This document shows positions 561 through 46,504 of a stretch of DNA of 64,000 bases, one piece after another (the first letter of the stretch is position 1; the number at the start of each line of letters is the position of its first letter). The translations under genes and the position numbers were made by a program. The notes beneath the pieces were generated by a model. It was not told the origin of the DNA. It did not search any database and saw only the letters and a program-made list of their open reading frames with translations. Source of the DNA: Polaromonas sp. (GTDB lineage Bacteria > Pseudomonadota > Gammaproteobacteria > Burkholderiales > Burkholderiaceae_C); assembly GCA_031417995.1 (NCBI GenBank), contig JANOWR010000093.1, positions 1,447 through 65,446 on the forward strand, given 5' to 3'.

Positions 561-1544
561 TTGAAATCGTTCGCTTTTGTATTTCCGGGTCAGGGTTCGC
601 AAGCCGTGGGCATGCTGGATGCCTGGGAAGGTCACCCCGCCGTGACACAAACGTTGCAAGAGGCCTCTGATGCGCTGGGTCAAGACATGGGCCTGCTCAT
701 TAAAGAAGGCCCAAAAGAAGCGCTGGCGTTGACCACCAACACCCAGCCTGTGATGCTGGTTGCTGGCGTTGCTGCTTATCGCGTATGGATGTTTGAGGTG
801 GGTGTTGCGCCGGCTTTTGTCGCCGGGCACTCGCTGGGCGAATACGCCGCGCTGGTGGCCAGCGGCGCATTGACTTTGACGCAAGCTGCACCGCTGGTGC
901 GCTTCAGGGCCCAGGCCATGCAGGATGCGGTACCTGTGGGGGTTGGCGCGATGGCGGCCATATTGGGCCTGGATGCTCCCAAAATAATAGCTGCTTGCGC
1001 CCGAATAACGGCGGCTACAGCTCAAATTGACCCGGAAAATGACCTTAAAAATGCTGAAACTGTTGAGGCCGTTAACTTTAACGACCCCATGCAGACCGTG
1101 ATTGCTGGCAGCAAGGCTGCGGTTGACATGGCTTGCGAAGCACTCAAGGCCGAAGGTGCCAAACGCGCCTTGTTGCTGCAGGTTTCTGCGCCGTTTCATT
1201 CCAGCCTGATGAAGCCTGCTGCTGAAAAGCTCAAGGAAAAACTGGCTCAAACCACCTTTTCTGCGCTGCAAATACCGTTGATCAACAACATTGATGTGGC
1301 GATTGAAACGGACGCGCTCCGCATTCGCGATGCCCTGTATCGCCAAGCCTTTGGCGCAGTGCGCTGGGTAGAGTGTGTGCAGGCCATCAAGGCACGCGGG
1401 GTCAACCACATCGTCGAATGCGGGCCGGGTAAAGTACTCTCTGGCCTGGTCAAGAGGATTGACGCGGACATGACGGGTGCGCCTCTGTTTGATATTGCCT
1501 CCATGGCCCAGGTCAAAGAATTGTTGAAAGAGTTGTCTGTATGA
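561..1544 (+). CDS. fabD: Malonyl-CoA:ACP transacylase
   Basis: FVFPGQGSQ, GHSLGEY catalytic motif, SAPFHS; TTG start at 561 after GGAG (ORF track starts at 549). Confidence 0.97.
   Translation: MKSFAFVFPGQGSQAVGMLDAWEGHPAVTQTLQEASDALGQDMGLLIKEGPKEALALTTNTQPVMLVAGVAAYRVWMFEVGVAPAFVAGHSLGEYAALVASGALTLTQAAPLVRFRAQAMQDAVPVGVGAMAAILGLDAPKIIAACARITAATAQIDPENDLKNAETVEAVNFNDPMQTVIAGSKAAVDMACEALKAEGAKRALLLQVSAPFHSSLMKPAAEKLKEKLAQTTFSALQIPLINNIDVAIETDALRIRDALYRQAFGAVRWVECVQAIKARGVNHIVECGPGKVLSGLVKRIDADMTGAPLFDIASMAQVKELLKELSV
981..1050 (+). repeat. Dispersed repeat copy in-frame inside fabD
   Basis: 985-1006 TAATAGCTGCTTGCGCCCGAAT is identical to 19862-19883; GGCTACAG and TTGA..GAAAA also align. Confidence 0.85.
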
Positions 1545-5256: not shown

Positions 5257-5916
5257 ATGACTACCCTGAATCAGACCCTGTCATCTGCACCTGCCGCACC
5301 CGATTGCGAATGGCTGTCTGCGCTGGCGGACGGTGAGCTGTCTGCGCACGAAGTAGCCCTTGCATTTGAGGTGGGCAAGCAGGATGTGGCGATGTTCGGC
5401 AACTGGAATACCTATCACCTGATTGGCAATGTTCTGCGCACGGCTATGCCTGCTTCAGGCGCTGTTGTTCAAGGTGCCGATGTGGCTTTTCTGGAGCGCC
5501 TGAACCAGCGCCTGAGGGGGGAAGAAATAGCCCATGACGTGCGGCCTGATGCCGCGTCGCGCGCTGAATTGCAATCTATTGTGGCGATGGCTGACCATCG
5601 CGGGCCGGCAGCAAACGATGGCAATTTCAGGTGGAAGCTGGTGGCTGGCTTTGCTTCTCTGGGGGCAGTTGCCAGCATTGCCTGGAGTTTGTCTGGCATG
5701 TCCACACCCACCAGCGCGCCGGTGCTGGCCGATGCCCCACAGGGCGCTGTGGTTCAGCAGGTCGTTACCGCTTCGCCACAAGGCCCGATGGTGCGCGACG
5801 TCAGGCTTGAAGAACTGTTGGCTGCCCACAAGCAACTCGGCAGCACATCGCTGCAGGCGCCGTCAGGCTTTTTGCGCAGTGCAAGCTTTGAAGCCCCACA
5901 ATCTGGCAGGCGTTGA
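5257..5916 (+). CDS. rseA: Anti-sigma-E factor RseA family
   Basis: LSALADGE, W..YHLIG.VLR N-terminal domain, one TM, follows rpoE. Confidence 0.9.
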   Translation: MTTLNQTLSSAPAAPDCEWLSALADGELSAHEVALAFEVGKQDVAMFGNWNTYHLIGNVLRTAMPASGAVVQGADVAFLERLNQRLRGEEIAHDVRPDAASRAELQSIVAMADHRGPAANDGNFRWKLVAGFASLGAVASIAWSLSGMSTPTSAPVLADAPQGAVVQQVVTASPQGPMVRDVRLEELLAAHKQLGSTSLQAPSGFLRSASFEAPQSGRR

Positions 5917-5951
5917 TCCGTCTGTCGAGATGCTTTAAAAGACCCAAAAAA

Positions 5952-6980
5952 ATGAATTTCAAGCGTTTTAGCCTTCTGGCCCTCTGTATATGGGTTCAAG
6001 CAGCTATTAATATAGTAGCTGCTCAAACGCCACCGACTGTTGTTGGCAGTACTTCCCCTGCGCTTGCAGAGTCAAGAAACCTTAACGACTGGTTGATGCG
6101 CATGCATGAGGCGTCCAAAAAGCGCGCTTACATTGGCACGTATGTGGTGTCGTCTGGTGGGGCCATGTCCAGCGCCAAAATCTGGTCTGTGTGCGAAGGC
6201 AACCAGCAGATAGAGCGGGTCGAGACACTCACAGGTGCGCCGCGTTCCATTTTCAGGCACAACGACAAGGTCGTTACCTTCATGCCCGAGCAAAAAGTCG
6301 TGCGCAGTGAAAAGCGGGAATCCCTGAGCGTATTTCCGGAATTGATTCAGTCCCCAGACAACCGCATTGCCGATTTCTACAAGCTCAAACTCGAAGGCGT
6401 GGAGCGTATTGCTGGCGTTGAAGCCGACGTGGCCTTGCTGCTGCCCAAAGACGGCATGCGCTTTGGCTACCGCGTCTGGACCGAGCAAAAAAAAGGGCTG
6501 GTCGTCAAGCTGCAAACGCTGGACGCAGAAGGCCGGGTACTTGAGCAGGCCGCTTTTTCTGAATTGCAGCTTGATGCACCGGTCAAAATGGACAAGCTCC
6601 TGAGCATGATGGGCAAGGTGGACGGCTACCGCGTGGAGCAGCCAACGCTTGTCAAGACCACAGCGAGTGCAGAAGGCTGGCTGCTCAAGGCGCCGGTGGC
6701 TGGGTTCAAGCCCATGAGCTGCTACAAGCGGCCTGCAAGCAATGCATCTGCCGCAGCCACCGATGAGCCGCTGCAATGGATTTTTTCGGACGGTCTGGCT
6801 TCGGTTTCGCTGTTTGTAGAGCCGTTTGATCGCCAGCGCCATGACAAAGAATCCAGCATGTCCATGGGGGCCACGCAGACCATGACGCGGCAATTGGGTT
6901 CTTACTGGTTGACCGCCATGGGCGAGGTGCCCATGAGCACGTTGAAGCTGTTTGCCAACGGGCTCGAGCGAAAAAAGTAG
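5952..6980 (+). CDS. rseB: RseB/MucB periplasmic regulator
   Basis: Signal-like N-terminus, ERVETLTG, DGLASVSLFVEP; synteny; ATG 5952 preferred over 5913. Confidence 0.9.
   Translation: MNFKRFSLLALCIWVQAAINIVAAQTPPTVVGSTSPALAESRNLNDWLMRMHEASKKRAYIGTYVVSSGGAMSSAKIWSVCEGNQQIERVETLTGAPRSIFRHNDKVVTFMPEQKVVRSEKRESLSVFPELIQSPDNRIADFYKLKLEGVERIAGVEADVALLLPKDGMRFGYRVWTEQKKGLVVKLQTLDAEGRVLEQAAFSELQLDAPVKMDKLLSMMGKVDGYRVEQPTLVKTTASAEGWLLKAPVAGFKPMSCYKRPASNASAAATDEPLQWIFSDGLASVSLFVEPFDRQRHDKESSMSMGATQTMTRQLGSYWLTAMGEVPMSTLKLFANGLERKK
5965..6019 (-). repeat. Dispersed repeat copy in-frame in the rseB signal-peptide region
   Basis: Reverse complement GCTACTATATTAATAGCTGCTTGAACCC...GGGCCAGAAGGC shares TTAATAGCTGCTTG and GGGC..AGGC with the 19851 copy. 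Confidence 0.7.
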
Positions 6981-15483: not shown

Positions 15484-15875
15484 TCTTTGGCGTGGGCACA
15501 GATATCTGCGACGTGCGCCGCATACGCGCCAGCGTTGAACGCCATGGCGAGCGCTTTGCCAAAAAAATCCTGAGCGACGGCGAAATGAAAACCTGGCAAG
15601 AGCGCAGCGCCCGCTGGCCAGACCGTGGCGTCAGCTACCTCGCGACCCGCTTTTCAGCCAAAGAGGCTTTCAGCAAAGCCATCGGCATGGGCATGCGCAT
15701 GCCCATGACCTGGCGCAACTGCGAAATCGCCAAAGAGGCCAGCGGCAAACCCTGCATCGTGCTGCTCGGGGCACTGAAAGAATGGTTTGACGCGCGCCAC
15801 TTGTCCGCCCATGTCAGCGTGACAGACGAAACTGACTATGCCGCCAGTTTTGTCGTGATTGAGCATAAAATTTAA
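15480..15875 (+). CDS. acpS: Holo-ACP synthase
   Basis: [19 protein letters not shown]. Confidence 0.96.
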
Positions 15876-15886
15876 GCTTTTTGGCA

Positions 15887-15954
15887 TCTTTTTACCCATC
15901 AAATTGGCCTCTAGCCCATTAGATTCGGGCGAAAGCAGCTTCTGAATGAATAGC
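15887..15954 (-). repeat. Dispersed repeat copy (acpS-nagZ intergenic)
   Basis: Reverse complement GCTATTCATTCAGAAGCTGCTTTCGCCCGAATCTAATGGGCTAGAGG aligns with family. Confidence 0.8.
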
Positions 15955-15969
15955 AACTGAAAAGCAAAC

Positions 15970-17028
15970 ATGACCCAACACGCCCCCCTCATCATCGATA
16001 TCGCAGGTTTAAGCCTGACCAAAGACGACCGTCGCCGCCTGAAAAATCCGCTCACAGGCGGCATCATTCTGTTCGCCCGCAACTGGGAAAATCGCGCGCA
16101 ACTTACCAGCCTGTGTGCGGCCATCAAAAGCATTCGCAAAGACCTGCTGATTTGTGTGGACCACGAAGGCGGGCGCGTGCAGCGCTTTAAAACCGACGGT
16201 TTTACCCACCTGCCGCCCATGCGGGCTTTGGGCGAGTTGTGGATGAAAGACCAGCTGGCAGCGACCAACGCCGCCACCGCCTGCGGCTATGTGCTGGCCG
16301 CCGAGCTGCGCAGTTGTGGGGTTGATTTCAGCTTCACGCCGGTGCTTGATTTGGACTTTGGCGAGAGCAGCGTCATCGGCGACCGCGCCTTTGGCCGCGA
16401 CCCGCGCGTCGTCACCTTGCTGGCCAAAAGCCTGATGAACGGCCTGCTGCAGGCGGGCATGATGAACTGCGGCAAACACTTCCCCGGTCATGGCTTTGTC
16501 AAAGCGGATTCTCACCATGAAATTCCGGTCGATAAACGCAGCCTCAAAGCCATTCTGGCTGACGATGCCGCCCCCTACGAGTGGCTGAACACCACGTTGA
16601 CCAGCGTCATGCCTGCCCACGTGATTTACCCCAAGGTGGACAGTCGCCCGGCGGGCTTTTCAGAACAATGGCTGACCTATATTTTGCGCGGCCAACTTGG
16701 CTTTGGTGGTGCGATTTTCAGCGACGACCTGAGCATGGCCGGTGCGCGCATCATCGACGGCAAGCAGGTCAGTTACACCCAGGCGGCCATCACCGCGCTG
16801 AATGCTGGCTGCGACATGGTGCTGCTATGCAACCAGTCGGTTGATGATGGCAAGGCTGTTGACGAACTGCTTGACGGCATGACTGAAGCGCTCATGAAAG
16901 GCCGCTGGGAAGCGCTGGAATCCAGCGAGCTGCGCCGACTCGATTTGCTGCCCACCACCCGCGCCCACGCCTGGGACGACCTGATGCTGCACCCGGCGTA
17001 CATGCATGCGATGGGTTTGATTCCGTGA
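15970..17028 (+). CDS. nagZ: Beta-N-acetylhexosaminidase GH3
   Basis: VDHEGGRVQRF, KHFPGHG, FSDDLSM. Confidence 0.95.
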   Translation: MTQHAPLIIDIAGLSLTKDDRRRLKNPLTGGIILFARNWENRAQLTSLCAAIKSIRKDLLICVDHEGGRVQRFKTDGFTHLPPMRALGELWMKDQLAATNAATACGYVLAAELRSCGVDFSFTPVLDLDFGESSVIGDRAFGRDPRVVTLLAKSLMNGLLQAGMMNCGKHFPGHGFVKADSHHEIPVDKRSLKAILADDAAPYEWLNTTLTSVMPAHVIYPKVDSRPAGFSEQWLTYILRGQLGFGGAIFSDDLSMAGARIIDGKQVSYTQAAITALNAGCDMVLLCNQSVDDGKAVDELLDGMTEALMKGRWEALESSELRRLDLLPTTRAHAWDDLMLHPAYMHAMGLIP

Positions 17029-19850: not shown

Positions 19851-19969
19851 TACTATAAATTTAATAGCTGCTTGCGCCCGAATCGATTGGGCTACAGGCA
19901 TTTTTGATACCTGAAAACGGCGATTTTTGCCTTCAAAAACCTCAATTCAGGTGATTTGCAGATGCGAAA
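19851..19969 (+). repeat. Left copy of 119-bp direct repeat
   Basis: Identical to 29758-29876 except C19918 vs A29825. Confidence 0.95.
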
Positions 19970-20123
19970 AGTGCTTTCAGCCCAATTTTTTGAGCGCAAG
20001 CAGTTTCAGATTTGATCGTCATGACTCTTTGAGTGTCAAGTCTGTGTGCCTGATATTCGCTTGTCGATTTTGTACGTTCAACTTTAGAATGCATCAGGCA
20101 GTCATTGATGCTCAAACCAGACC

Positions 20124-29757: not shown

Positions 29758-29876
29758 TACTATAAATTTAATAGCTGCTTGCGCCCGAATCGATTGGGCT
29801 ACAGGCATTTTTGATACCTGAAAAAGGCGATTTTTGCCTTCAAAAACCTCAATTCAGGTGATTTGCAGATGCGAAA
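29758..29876 (+). repeat. Right copy of 119-bp direct repeat
   Basis: 118/119 identical to 19851-19969. Confidence 0.95.
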
Positions 29877-29927
29877 GCACCTTTGACCCAAGTCGCGGTA
29901 TGCTGCATTTTTTAACCGGAGCCACTC

Positions 29928-33867: not shown

Positions 33868-33935
33868 GCTATTAAAAAAATAGCTGCTTGCACCCGAATC
33901 TATTGGGCTACAAGCTTAAAAAGCATCTGAAAAAT
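33868..33935 (+). repeat. Dispersed repeat copy between convergent GST and dusA
   Basis: GCTATTAAAAAAATAGCTGCTTGCACCCGAATCTATTGGGCTACAAGC. Confidence 0.88.
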
Positions 33936-41426: not shown

Positions 41427-41635
41427 ACTATCAATAAAGTAGCTGCTTGCGCATGTATCCATTGGCATGTAGCCGCTTTTGACACCCCAAAACGGCTCAA
41501 AAAAGCAGTTTTCAAGCAAACAAACGCTTTTTGAAGCCACTGCAACCCATTTTTAAGCCTCAAGAGGGCATTTTACCCATCAAATCAGCCTGTAAGCCAA
41601 TAAATACGTGCGCTAGAAGCTATGAAATAAATAGC
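41427..41635. repeat. Two dispersed-repeat copies in inverted orientation (41427-41495 +, 41566-41635 -)
   Basis: GTAGCTGCTTGCGCATG on +; minus copy shares TTTTACCCATCAAAT..GCCT...AATAGC with the 15887 copy. Confidence 0.8.
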
Positions 41636-46413: not shown

Positions 46414-46504
46414 GCTATTAAATTAGTAGCTGCTTGCGCCCGAATCTATTGGACTACAAGCTTAAAACAACCCTGAAAAAGACTCAAAACAGCTTTTTTC
46501 AGGG
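46414..46504 (+). repeat. Dispersed repeat copy with terminal hairpin between convergent genes
   Basis: GCTATTAAATTAGTAGCTGCTTGCGCCCGAATCTATTGGACTACAAGC then CCCTGAAAAAG...CTTTTTTCAGGG. Confidence 0.88.

What the first reader, a model, noticed from the sequence alone, without database searches (positions are those of the whole stretch)
981..1050. Intergenic repeat embedded in-frame in the essential gene fabD
Seen: a 22-nt exact match (985-1006 vs 19862-19883) plus further aligned blocks encodes KIIAACARITAATAQIDPEN. This lies in a segment of 32 aa between GLD and VNF, against about 19 aa in E. coli FabD as I recall it. Known: Rickettsia palindromic elements insert in-frame into housekeeping proteins. 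Inference: an analogous repeat-to-protein recruitment in Comamonadaceae that remodels a surface helix/loop of the FabD small subdomain.
Basis: partly seen in the sequence, partly recalled or inferred. Interest (0 to 1): 0.65.

Follow-up and report, generated by a model that had tools for sequence, protein, structure and literature searches.

The report
Dispersed Polaromonas repeat written into fabD
The essential fatty-acid gene fabD of this Polaromonas genome really does carry, in frame, a copy of a 65-base repeat present about 600 times in the genome. The copy is old, overlies the original helix rather than being simply inserted, and is one of about 70 such copies inside working genes.

Summary
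Observation confirmed. Window 975-1038 inside fabD (561-1544) matches the whole 65-nt profile of a dispersed repeat (E 7e-10), with a 26-nt exact core. The genome holds about 598 copies.

Interpretation partly supported. The direction is repeat to gene, and the peptide forms the helix and loop of the FabD small subdomain. It is not a private, simple insertion:
- 18 distinct Polaromonas fabD sequences share the copy; all other Polaromonas and Rhodoferax FabDs searched lack it.
- Its first 11 codons lie codon for codon over the ancestral helix and keep the invariant Cys-Ala. The net gain at origin was only 3 aa.
- Of the 13-aa surplus over E. coli, 6 aa predate the repeat and 4 come from a later loop indel.

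The core has the lowest synonymous-site diversity in fabD. Its A/T variant follows each genome's repeat pool, which suggests DNA-level homogenisation.

About 70 copies lie in frame in real genes. All 20 sampled have Pfam domains, flanking or spanning the copy in most (thiL, aceE, purL, tex, mutS, metH, leuS).

Closest known: Rickettsia palindromic elements and intragenic REPs. This scan has reported the same family before in other Polaromonas genomes. I found no published description.

The parts
561..1544 (+). fabD (malonyl-CoA:ACP transacylase), TTG start, 327 aa, single copy in the genome
   Evidence: ORF and fabG-acpP-fabF context. TIGR00128 fabD scores 313 bits against a cut-off of 261. 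PDB FabDs match at E 1e-110 to 1e-85. One match in G000. Q11, S91, R116 and H213 are invariant.
975..1038 (+). In-frame copy of the 65-nt dispersed repeat (model positions 1-64), encoding residues 139-159 APKIIAACARITAATAQIDPE
   Evidence: nhmmer 40.3 bits, E 7.3e-10. Same reading frame as many other coding copies of the type A..LIAACARIDWATG.FD.
981..1006 (+). Exact 26-nt core shared with other genomic copies. Lowest third-codon-position diversity of the whole gene across the clade.
   Evidence: blastn gives 26/26 matches. pi3 is 0.21 against a gene mean of 0.47, and the 7 lowest of 328 nine-codon windows all overlap it. The rare codon ATA is used in 29 of 31 element Ile codons against 31 of 244 elsewhere.
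1041..1061 (+). Loop after the element (residues 161-167, DLKNAET), holding a 4-aa extension specific to this lineage. Low-confidence loop in the model.
   Evidence: Alignment with clade members. pLDDT 62-69 for residues 151-170 and no secondary structure at 156-167.
5959..6019 (-). Antisense family copy lying in the N-terminal signal-peptide region of rseB
   Evidence: nhmmer 30.6 bits. ORF 5913-6980. RseB family hit.
15890..15954 (-). Intergenic family copy between acpS-like and nagZ-like genes
   Evidence: nhmmer 58.2 bits. ORFs.
19853..19916 (+). A weaker antisense copy lies at 19959-20015.
   Evidence: nhmmer 68.5 and 21.3 bits. Sequence.
29760..29823 (+). Intergenic family copy, part of a 132-nt near-identical duplicate of 19851-19982
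33868..33932 (+). Family copy
   Evidence: nhmmer 54.5 bits.
41428..41491 (+). Family copy, with an antisense partner at 41571-41635
   Evidence: nhmmer 43.1 and 45.8 bits.
46414..46478 (+). Family copy
   Evidence: nhmmer 57.8 bits.

Best explanation
Window 975-1038 is a full-length copy of a genus-wide 65-nt dispersed repeat of Polaromonas, translated as part of FabD.

Origin: in the common ancestor of a clade of at least 18 species-level Polaromonas lineages, the element replaced the DNA for the first helix and following loop of the FabD small subdomain. It lies in register on the old codons, keeps the invariant Cys146-Ala147, and added only 3 residues. This lineage later gained 4 more loop residues.

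Protein level: the element peptide now forms that surface helix (residues 139-155), and the enzyme keeps its fold and catalytic residues.

DNA level: the copy does not evolve like ordinary coding sequence. Its core is held close to the repeat consensus of each genome, most likely by sequence exchange (gene conversion or an equivalent drive) with the hundreds of other copies.

Shown: family membership, clade distribution, register and length, fold, low synonymous diversity, and the link between the fabD variant and the genome pool. Inferred: the replacement mechanism and ongoing homogenisation. Unknown: what reads the repeat.
For: Family and match:
- About 598 copies in the genome, and fabD matches the whole model.

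Distribution:
- All 18 distinct fabD sequences of the clade hit the profile at 17-48 bits. 85 or more other Polaromonas, Rhodoferax and outgroup FabDs give no hit, or only 11-15 bits.
- With the segment masked, the element-bearing sequences fall in one clade (support 0.84).
- The family also occurs in genomes with ancestral fabD: G005 has 53 pattern hits, G009 has 31 and G008 has 21. The repeat therefore predates the fabD variant.

Register and length:
- Codon alignment. The GxD-VNF segment is 25 aa in the ancestral form, 28 aa in most of the clade and 32 aa here.

Protein:
- AlphaFold pLDDT 87, with helix 139-155, loop 156-167 and strand 168-175.
- Foldseek TM 0.88-0.94 to FabD structures 3ezo, 6u0j and 1mla.

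DNA-level constraint:
- pi3 of 0.21 against 0.47, the lowest in the gene, while first and second positions are average.
- ATA codon bias, P = 3e-20.

Tracking of the genome pool:
- Genomes whose fabD copy reads GAAT have 70%, 33% and 18% GAAT among their copies.
- Genomes whose fabD reads GTAT have 4-5%, or 5-15% in 20-copy samples.
- In this genome, in-frame copies show the lineage-specific A at the same 70% as the other copies, although 4 of 4 checked are older than the species split.

Generality:
- 70 copies have coding sequence in the same frame on both sides, against 6 out of frame and 1 with a stop.
- All 20 sampled ORFs have Pfam domains; in most they flank or span the copy.
Against: - The Tex copy is a clean insertion of about 24 aa, absent from G012 and G008. 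True insertion therefore also happens in this family, and fabD could be an insertion later trimmed.
- Two element-less FabDs (L016, L086) nest beside L005 in the single-gene tree. That requires a loss or a tree error.
- Outside this genome, in-gene copies fit their own genome's family profile best in only 4 of 10 cases.
- The GAAT/GTAT correlation rests on 9 genomes that are not independent.
- Low synonymous diversity could reflect selection on DNA or mRNA rather than exchange.
- No expression or peptide evidence exists.
Confidence: 0.72

Rival explanations
1. Classical RPE-like event. A mobile element transposed into fabD as a block of about 65 nt. Later deletions removed the old helix and restored the length. 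Since then the copy has simply decayed as coding sequence.
For: - Tex shows a clean insertion against empty sites.
- The left end of the element is sharp in 305 aligned copies.
- Loop length after the element varies within the clade: 25, 28, 31 and 32 aa.
Against: - The net change is only +3 aa, with exact register on the invariant Cys-Ala.
- The core has the lowest synonymous diversity in the gene rather than decaying.
- The fabD variant follows the genome pool.
- ThiL and AceE copies also overlie segments of similar length. For those two, the comparison with the E. coli sequence is from memory (own alignment).
- No transposase is linked to the element.
Confidence: 0.2
2. The repeat is a DNA-level signal (like an uptake, recombination or binding site). 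It is written into tolerant sites, coding ones included, mainly by substitutions favoured by a molecular drive or by selection, as with USS and DUS in Haemophilus and Neisseria. fabD was overprinted gradually.
For: - Graded series. Several repeat-free FabDs with GC3 of 0.70-0.78 already carry ATA-GCT-GGT-TGC-GCA at this site. ATA is used in 9 of 68 at the site against 25 of 761 elsewhere, P = 0.001.
- Lineage-specific variants exist.
- Both orientations are equally common, 201 against 203.
- Non-coding copies lie downstream of genes and rarely between divergent genes, 13 against 94 convergent and 240 unidirectional.
Against: - The motif is 65 nt long at about 1 copy per 6 kb, far longer and sparser than known uptake signals.
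- Tex is a real insertion.
- Spacing is close to random, CV 0.95 against 0.99.
- No reader protein or uptake bias is known.
- The 9 of 68 test ignores relatedness.
Confidence: 0.25
3. Reverse direction: the repeat family arose from a mobilised piece of fabD.
For: The frame-1 peptide of the element (A-I-N-L-I-A-A-C-A-R) resembles the ancestral FabD helix (A-x-K-V-I-A-G-C-A-E). Outgroup fabDs L066 and L069 match the first 26 model positions at 11-15 bits.
Against: - Genomes with ancestral fabD already hold tens of copies.
- Ancestral fabD lacks the right half of the element.
- The same element sits in ThiL and AceE of a genome with ancestral fabD, G008.
Confidence: 0.02
4. Chance resemblance or assembly artefact.
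For: The genome is a 184-contig metagenome assembly.
Against: - E 7e-10 over 64 nt, and 0 matches in 100 shuffles.
- The same architecture occurs in 18 independently assembled genomes.
- The frame is intact on both sides.
Confidence: 0.01

Closest known systems
Rickettsia palindromic elements (RPE; Ogata et al., as summarised in PMC10969869)
   Same: A short dispersed repeat found many times in frame inside unrelated housekeeping genes. It encodes a recurrent peptide, and the host proteins apparently stay functional.
   Different: - The host is a free-living betaproteobacterium.
- The element is 65 nt rather than about 100-150 nt, and no sequence relation was examined.
- In fabD, and apparently in ThiL and AceE, the copy overlies existing codons with little length change instead of adding a block.
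- Copies follow a lineage-specific consensus.
Intragenic GTAG/CGTC REPs (Di Nocera et al. 2013, PMC3733652)
   Same: - High-copy short repeats lying mostly downstream of genes and rarely between divergent genes.
- Some supply stop codons, and some lie inside genes, including UvrD/Rep-type helicases and tRNA synthetases.
- Here an AddA-like helicase carries two copies, and LeuRS carries one.
   Different: - The hairpin is weak (z -0.4 to -1.1).
- The element is longer than a REP.
- The only Y1 transposase in the genome is flanked by a different inverted repeat (GGGGTCAGACTCCAATT, 27 copies), so no REPtron links it to this family.
DNA uptake signal sequences (USS of Pasteurellaceae, DUS of Neisseriaceae)
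   Same: A genome-wide motif in both orientations with lineage-specific variants. It occurs inside genes in tolerated frames and is kept at synonymous sites against codon bias.
   Different: The motif is several times longer and about 5 times sparser. At least some copies are true insertions. No uptake bias or receptor is known. This is an analogy only.

Membership tests
FabD (malonyl-CoA:ACP transacylase, TIGR00128) | Family model above the curated cut-off | tested here: met
   313.4 bits against a cut-off of 260.9.
FabD (malonyl-CoA:ACP transacylase, TIGR00128) | Catalytic Gln, Ser (GHSLGE), Arg and His present | tested here: met
   Q11, S91, R116 and H213 are invariant in the 43-sequence alignment.
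FabD (malonyl-CoA:ACP transacylase, TIGR00128) | Two-subdomain MCAT fold | tested here: met
   Model pLDDT 87. TM 0.88-0.94 and rmsd about 1.9 to 3ezo, 6u0j and 1mla.
Polaromonas 65-nt dispersed repeat | Full-length match to the family profile, including the right half (GGGCTACAG...TTTGA) | tested here: met
   Model positions 1-64, 40.3 bits, E 7.3e-10. Clade orthologs score 17-48 bits.
Polaromonas 65-nt dispersed repeat | Carries the variant typical of its own genome | tested here: met
   The fabD copy reads GAAT, like 70% of the copies in this genome. It fits this genome's profile best, 60.3 against 26-48 bits.
Rickettsia palindromic elements | In-frame location inside functional housekeeping ORFs | tested here: met
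   70 copies by coding-potential test. All 20 sampled ORFs have Pfam domains.
Rickettsia palindromic elements | The element adds a block absent from orthologs | tested here: not met
   In fabD the net change is +3 aa, in register with the old codons. The feature is met for Tex.
Rickettsia palindromic elements | Sequence homology to RPE-1 to RPE-10 | not tested
   No RPE sequences were at hand. Rfam gave no match for the element.
REP / REPIN with RAYT | Short, stable G+C-rich palindrome | tested here: not met
   Folding energies of -4.6 to -7.6 kcal/mol, z -0.4 to -1.1 against shuffles.
REP / REPIN with RAYT | A cognate Y1 (RAYT) transposase flanked by the same repeat | tested here: not met
   The single PF01797 gene is flanked by a different 17-nt inverted repeat with 27 copies. 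One degenerate copy of the 65-nt element lies upstream.
REP / REPIN with RAYT | Located downstream of ORFs, rare between divergent genes | tested here: met
   240 unidirectional, 94 convergent, 13 divergent.
MITE | Terminal inverted repeats and target-site duplication | tested here: inconclusive
   The two ends of the consensus are not complementary on inspection. The flanks show only a T at -1 and a variable hairpin plus T run at the 3' side. No explicit duplication test was run.
Uptake signal sequences (USS/DUS) | Coding copies made without length change, in tolerated frames | tested here: inconclusive
   fabD gained 3 aa with a codon-for-codon overlay of 11 codons. Tex is a 24-aa insertion.
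Uptake signal sequences (USS/DUS) | Preferential uptake of motif-bearing DNA by competent cells | not testable with these tools
   Needs transformation assays.

The most novel reading that the evidence does not exclude
The 65-nt element is a genome-wide DNA signal with an unknown reader, kept to a lineage-specific consensus by a drive (biased exchange or uptake). The drive is strong enough to overwrite codons of essential genes. Part of protein sequence evolution in this Polaromonas clade, including the FabD helix, would then be dictated by a non-coding signal rather than by selection on the protein.
Probability: 0.3. Interest if true: 0.85.

Novelty: new variant of a known kind. Interest (0 to 1): 0.66.

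Why it matters
In-frame repeats in housekeeping proteins are known chiefly from Rickettsia and from scattered intragenic REPs. Here a free-living, cold-water betaproteobacterial clade carries about 70 such copies per genome. They lie in core enzymes (FabD, ThiL, AceE, PurL, MutS, MetH, LeuRS, Lpd, NadE).

At least in fabD, the copy behaves as DNA under its own rules. It overlies old codons, resists synonymous change and follows the repeat variant of its genome.

This makes testable how a dispersed DNA element and protein-coding constraints share the same bases. It also matters for annotation and phylogenetics, because these segments are not ordinary homologous protein characters.

Tried and rejected
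- Rfam on the whole window and on one copy: no family.
- Hairpin stability: not better than shuffles, so the element is not a classical REP or terminator stem.
- RAYT link: rejected. The Y1 transposase has its own inverted repeats.
- Even spacing of copies: not seen, CV 0.95 against 0.99 +/- 0.04. There is only a mild excess of same-orientation neighbours, 258 against 197.
- Extra family copies in the 3-kb flanks of clade fabD loci, to type each genome's variant: none present. Replaced by whole-genome pattern counts.
- Best-fit test of in-gene copies against their own genome's family profile. Clear for this genome (4 of 4) but weak for the relatives (4 of 10), with unequal sample sizes.
- ORF 15654-16277(-) spanning the copy at 15890-15954: judged spurious, since it lies between two plus-strand genes.
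- Literature searches for a description of this element in Polaromonas: nothing found in the held library. The JS666 genome paper cited for Polaromonas MITEs is not held.

Full report
**1. Observation**

fabD runs from 561 (TTG, preceded by GGAG) to 1544 and is followed by fabG, acpP and fabF. It scores above the curated cut-off of the fabD equivalog and is the only fabD in the assembly.

The 21-mer core has 6 window matches at up to 3 mismatches, against none in 100 shuffles. Other genomic copies match fabD exactly over 26 nt, window 981-1006.

An nhmmer profile iterated on the genome finds 598 copies of a 65-nt element, one per 6 kb. It aligns to fabD over model positions 1-64 (window 975-1038, 40.3 bits, E 7.3e-10). 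The peptide and the 32-aa GLD-VNF segment are as described. Solved FabDs show a gap of 12-13 residues there.

**2. Who shares it**

Record titles place the genome in Polaromonas, among metagenome assemblies from glacier streams and lakes. I extracted fabD from 110 relatives.
- 18 distinct sequences (L001-L005, L051-L065; FabD 77-88% identical) hit the repeat profile at 17-48 bits. They read A-[TP]-K-I-I-A-[AV]-C-A-R-I-[ST]-G-A-T-A-E-F-D or similar.
- All other Polaromonas, Rhodoferax and outgroup FabDs read A-x-K-V-I-[EA]-G-C-A-E-A-V-R-S-F-G. They give no hit, or 11-15 bits over the first 26 model positions only.
- With the segment masked, the element-bearing sequences fall in one clade (support 0.84). 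Two element-less sequences nest beside the weakest copy.
- The repeat family itself occurs in genomes with ancestral fabD (53, 31 and 21 pattern hits in G005, G009 and G008). It runs to hundreds of copies in clade genomes.

So the direction is repeat to gene, and the event is older than this species.

**3. Not a simple insertion**

The codon alignment shows the first 11 element codons lying on the 11 ancestral codons A-x-K-V-I-x-G-C-A-E-A. The element's TGC GCC encodes the invariant Cys146 and near-invariant Ala147.

The GxD-VNF segment lengths are as follows:

| Group | Length (aa) |
|---|---|
| Gammaproteobacteria | 19 |
| Repeat-free Polaromonas and Rhodoferax | 25 |
| Most clade members | 28 |
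| L005/L064 | 25 |
| L065 | 31 |
| This genome | 32 |

Some repeat-free FabDs with GC-rich codon usage already carry ATA-GCT-GGT-TGC-GCA at this site. ATA is used in 9 of 68 at the site against 25 of 761 elsewhere. The pre-existing sequence was therefore partly element-like, or half-written.

**4. Protein level**

The AlphaFold model (43-sequence alignment, pLDDT 87) has three relevant elements:
- a helix at 139-155, which is the element peptide;
- a low-confidence loop at 156-167;
- a strand at 168-175.

The whole model superposes on FabD structures with TM 0.88-0.94. From established knowledge of the MCAT fold, this is the first helix of the ferredoxin-like small subdomain, on its outer face. 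I did not measure distances to the active site or the ACP site.

**5. DNA level**

Among the 18 clade sequences the element core has the lowest third-position diversity of the gene, 0.21 against a mean of 0.47. The 7 lowest of 328 windows all overlap it, while first and second positions are average. The rare codon ATA fills 29 of 31 element Ile codons against 31 of 244 elsewhere.

Family consensus differs by genome:
- this genome reads ...GCGCCCGAAT...;
- G016 reads ...GCGCACGTAT...;
- G022 and G004 read ...GCGCCCGTAT...

At the A/T position, the fabD state follows the genome pool:

| fabD state | Genome | GAAT share among its copies |
|---|---|---|
| GAAT | this genome | 70% |
| GAAT | G041 | 33% |
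| GAAT | G042 | 18% |
| GTAT | G043, G044, G045 | 4-5% |
| GTAT (G016: diverged, ACAT) | G016, G022, G004 | 5-15% |

In this genome, in-frame copies carry the lineage-specific A as often as the other copies do, 70% each. Yet the four in-gene copies I checked in relatives (FabD, ThiL, Tex, AceE) all predate the species split. This points to homogenisation of in-gene copies with the rest of the family. The genomes are few and related, so this is an inference.

**6. Generality**

A codon-usage test on both 150-nt flanks finds 70 copies with coding sequence in the same strand and frame and no stop. Only 6 are out of frame and 1 has a stop. All six reading frames of the element are used.

All 20 ORFs sampled are conserved proteins. 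In most, Pfam domains flank or span the copy; in a few the reported domain lies only to one side. They are Tex, PurL, AceE, ThiL, an AddA-like helicase with two copies, acetoacetate-CoA ligase, MetH, MutS, LeuRS, IcmF-like mutase, PepN, an RNB-domain RNase (RNase R/II type), Lpd, NadE, an FtsX-type permease, a DUF748/AsmA-family protein, a large FAD-linked oxidase, a DUF349 protein, an MmeI-like restriction-modification enzyme and a branched-chain amino-acid transport permease.

Tex is a clean insertion of about 24 aa, absent from G012 and G008. The ThiL and AceE copies are present even in G008.

**7. What kind of element**

- No Rfam family matches.
- The hairpins are weak.
- The left end is sharp, and a variable small hairpin plus T run follows the right end.
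- Non-coding copies lie between unidirectional (240) or convergent (94) genes and rarely between divergent genes (13).
- Spacing is near random.
- The only Y1 transposase is flanked by an unrelated 17-nt inverted repeat.

The closest known kinds are RPEs and intragenic REPs (PMC10969869, PMC3733652), with a behavioural likeness to uptake signals. I found no published description for Polaromonas.

**8. Earlier notes of this scan**

After reaching the reading above, I looked up earlier notes. Several follow-up reports on other Polaromonas genomes describe the same family. They say it lies in frame in housekeeping genes, sometimes overwrites codons, and is held to a lineage-specific consensus. 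One report proposes the uptake-signal analogy, which I adopted as a rival and as the novel case. These notes are leads, not evidence. The tests cited here are my own.

**9. Verdict**

The mechanism of homogenisation and the function of the DNA element remain inferred.

Noticed in passing
window 5959-6019 (-), inside rseB 5913-6980 (+): An antisense family copy (30.6 bits) encodes part of the hydrophobic N-terminal signal region (..LCIWVQAAINIVAA..) of an RseB homolog.
   Followed up: partly
window 19851-19982 and 29758-29889: Two 132-nt direct repeats, 95% identical (99% over the first 70 nt), bracket about 10 kb. Each begins with a family copy plus a shared 3' extension. Other copies share only about 65 nt.
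   Followed up: no
G000:C119:41645-42507 (L206): The only IS200/Y1-type transposase gene of the genome is flanked by perfect inverted repeats GGGGTCAGACTCCAATT. That motif occurs 27 times at up to 2 mismatches, so it is a separate small repeat family (TIRYT-like in the sense of PMC3733652).
   Followed up: partly
L038 (G000:C39:41040-44396): One AddA-like helicase ORF of 1119 aa carries two in-frame family copies, one antisense at aa 128-148 and one sense at about aa 702-721.
   Followed up: partly
G022:C2:52747-52830 (within L138): The Tex ortholog of G022 has an extra stretch of about 28 aa at query position 261, missing in this genome and in G016. It may be another element copy.
   Followed up: no
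right flanks of full-length copies, e.g. window 19917-19950: Directly after the conserved 65 nt comes a short stem of variable sequence (GGC..GCC type) followed by a T run. The stem seems to change in a compensatory way between copies, which hints at an RNA or terminator-like module.
   Followed up: no
L069, L100, L113, L124, L128 (Rhodoferax-labelled fabD loci): A separate FabD variant with 3 extra residues (..TSAMRALG..) in the same loop. Three of the five (L069, L100, L113) also use the rare ATA codon at the homologous Ile, although they lack the full element.
   Followed up: partly
whole genome G000: Neighbouring family copies share orientation more often than not (258 against 197).
   Followed up: no
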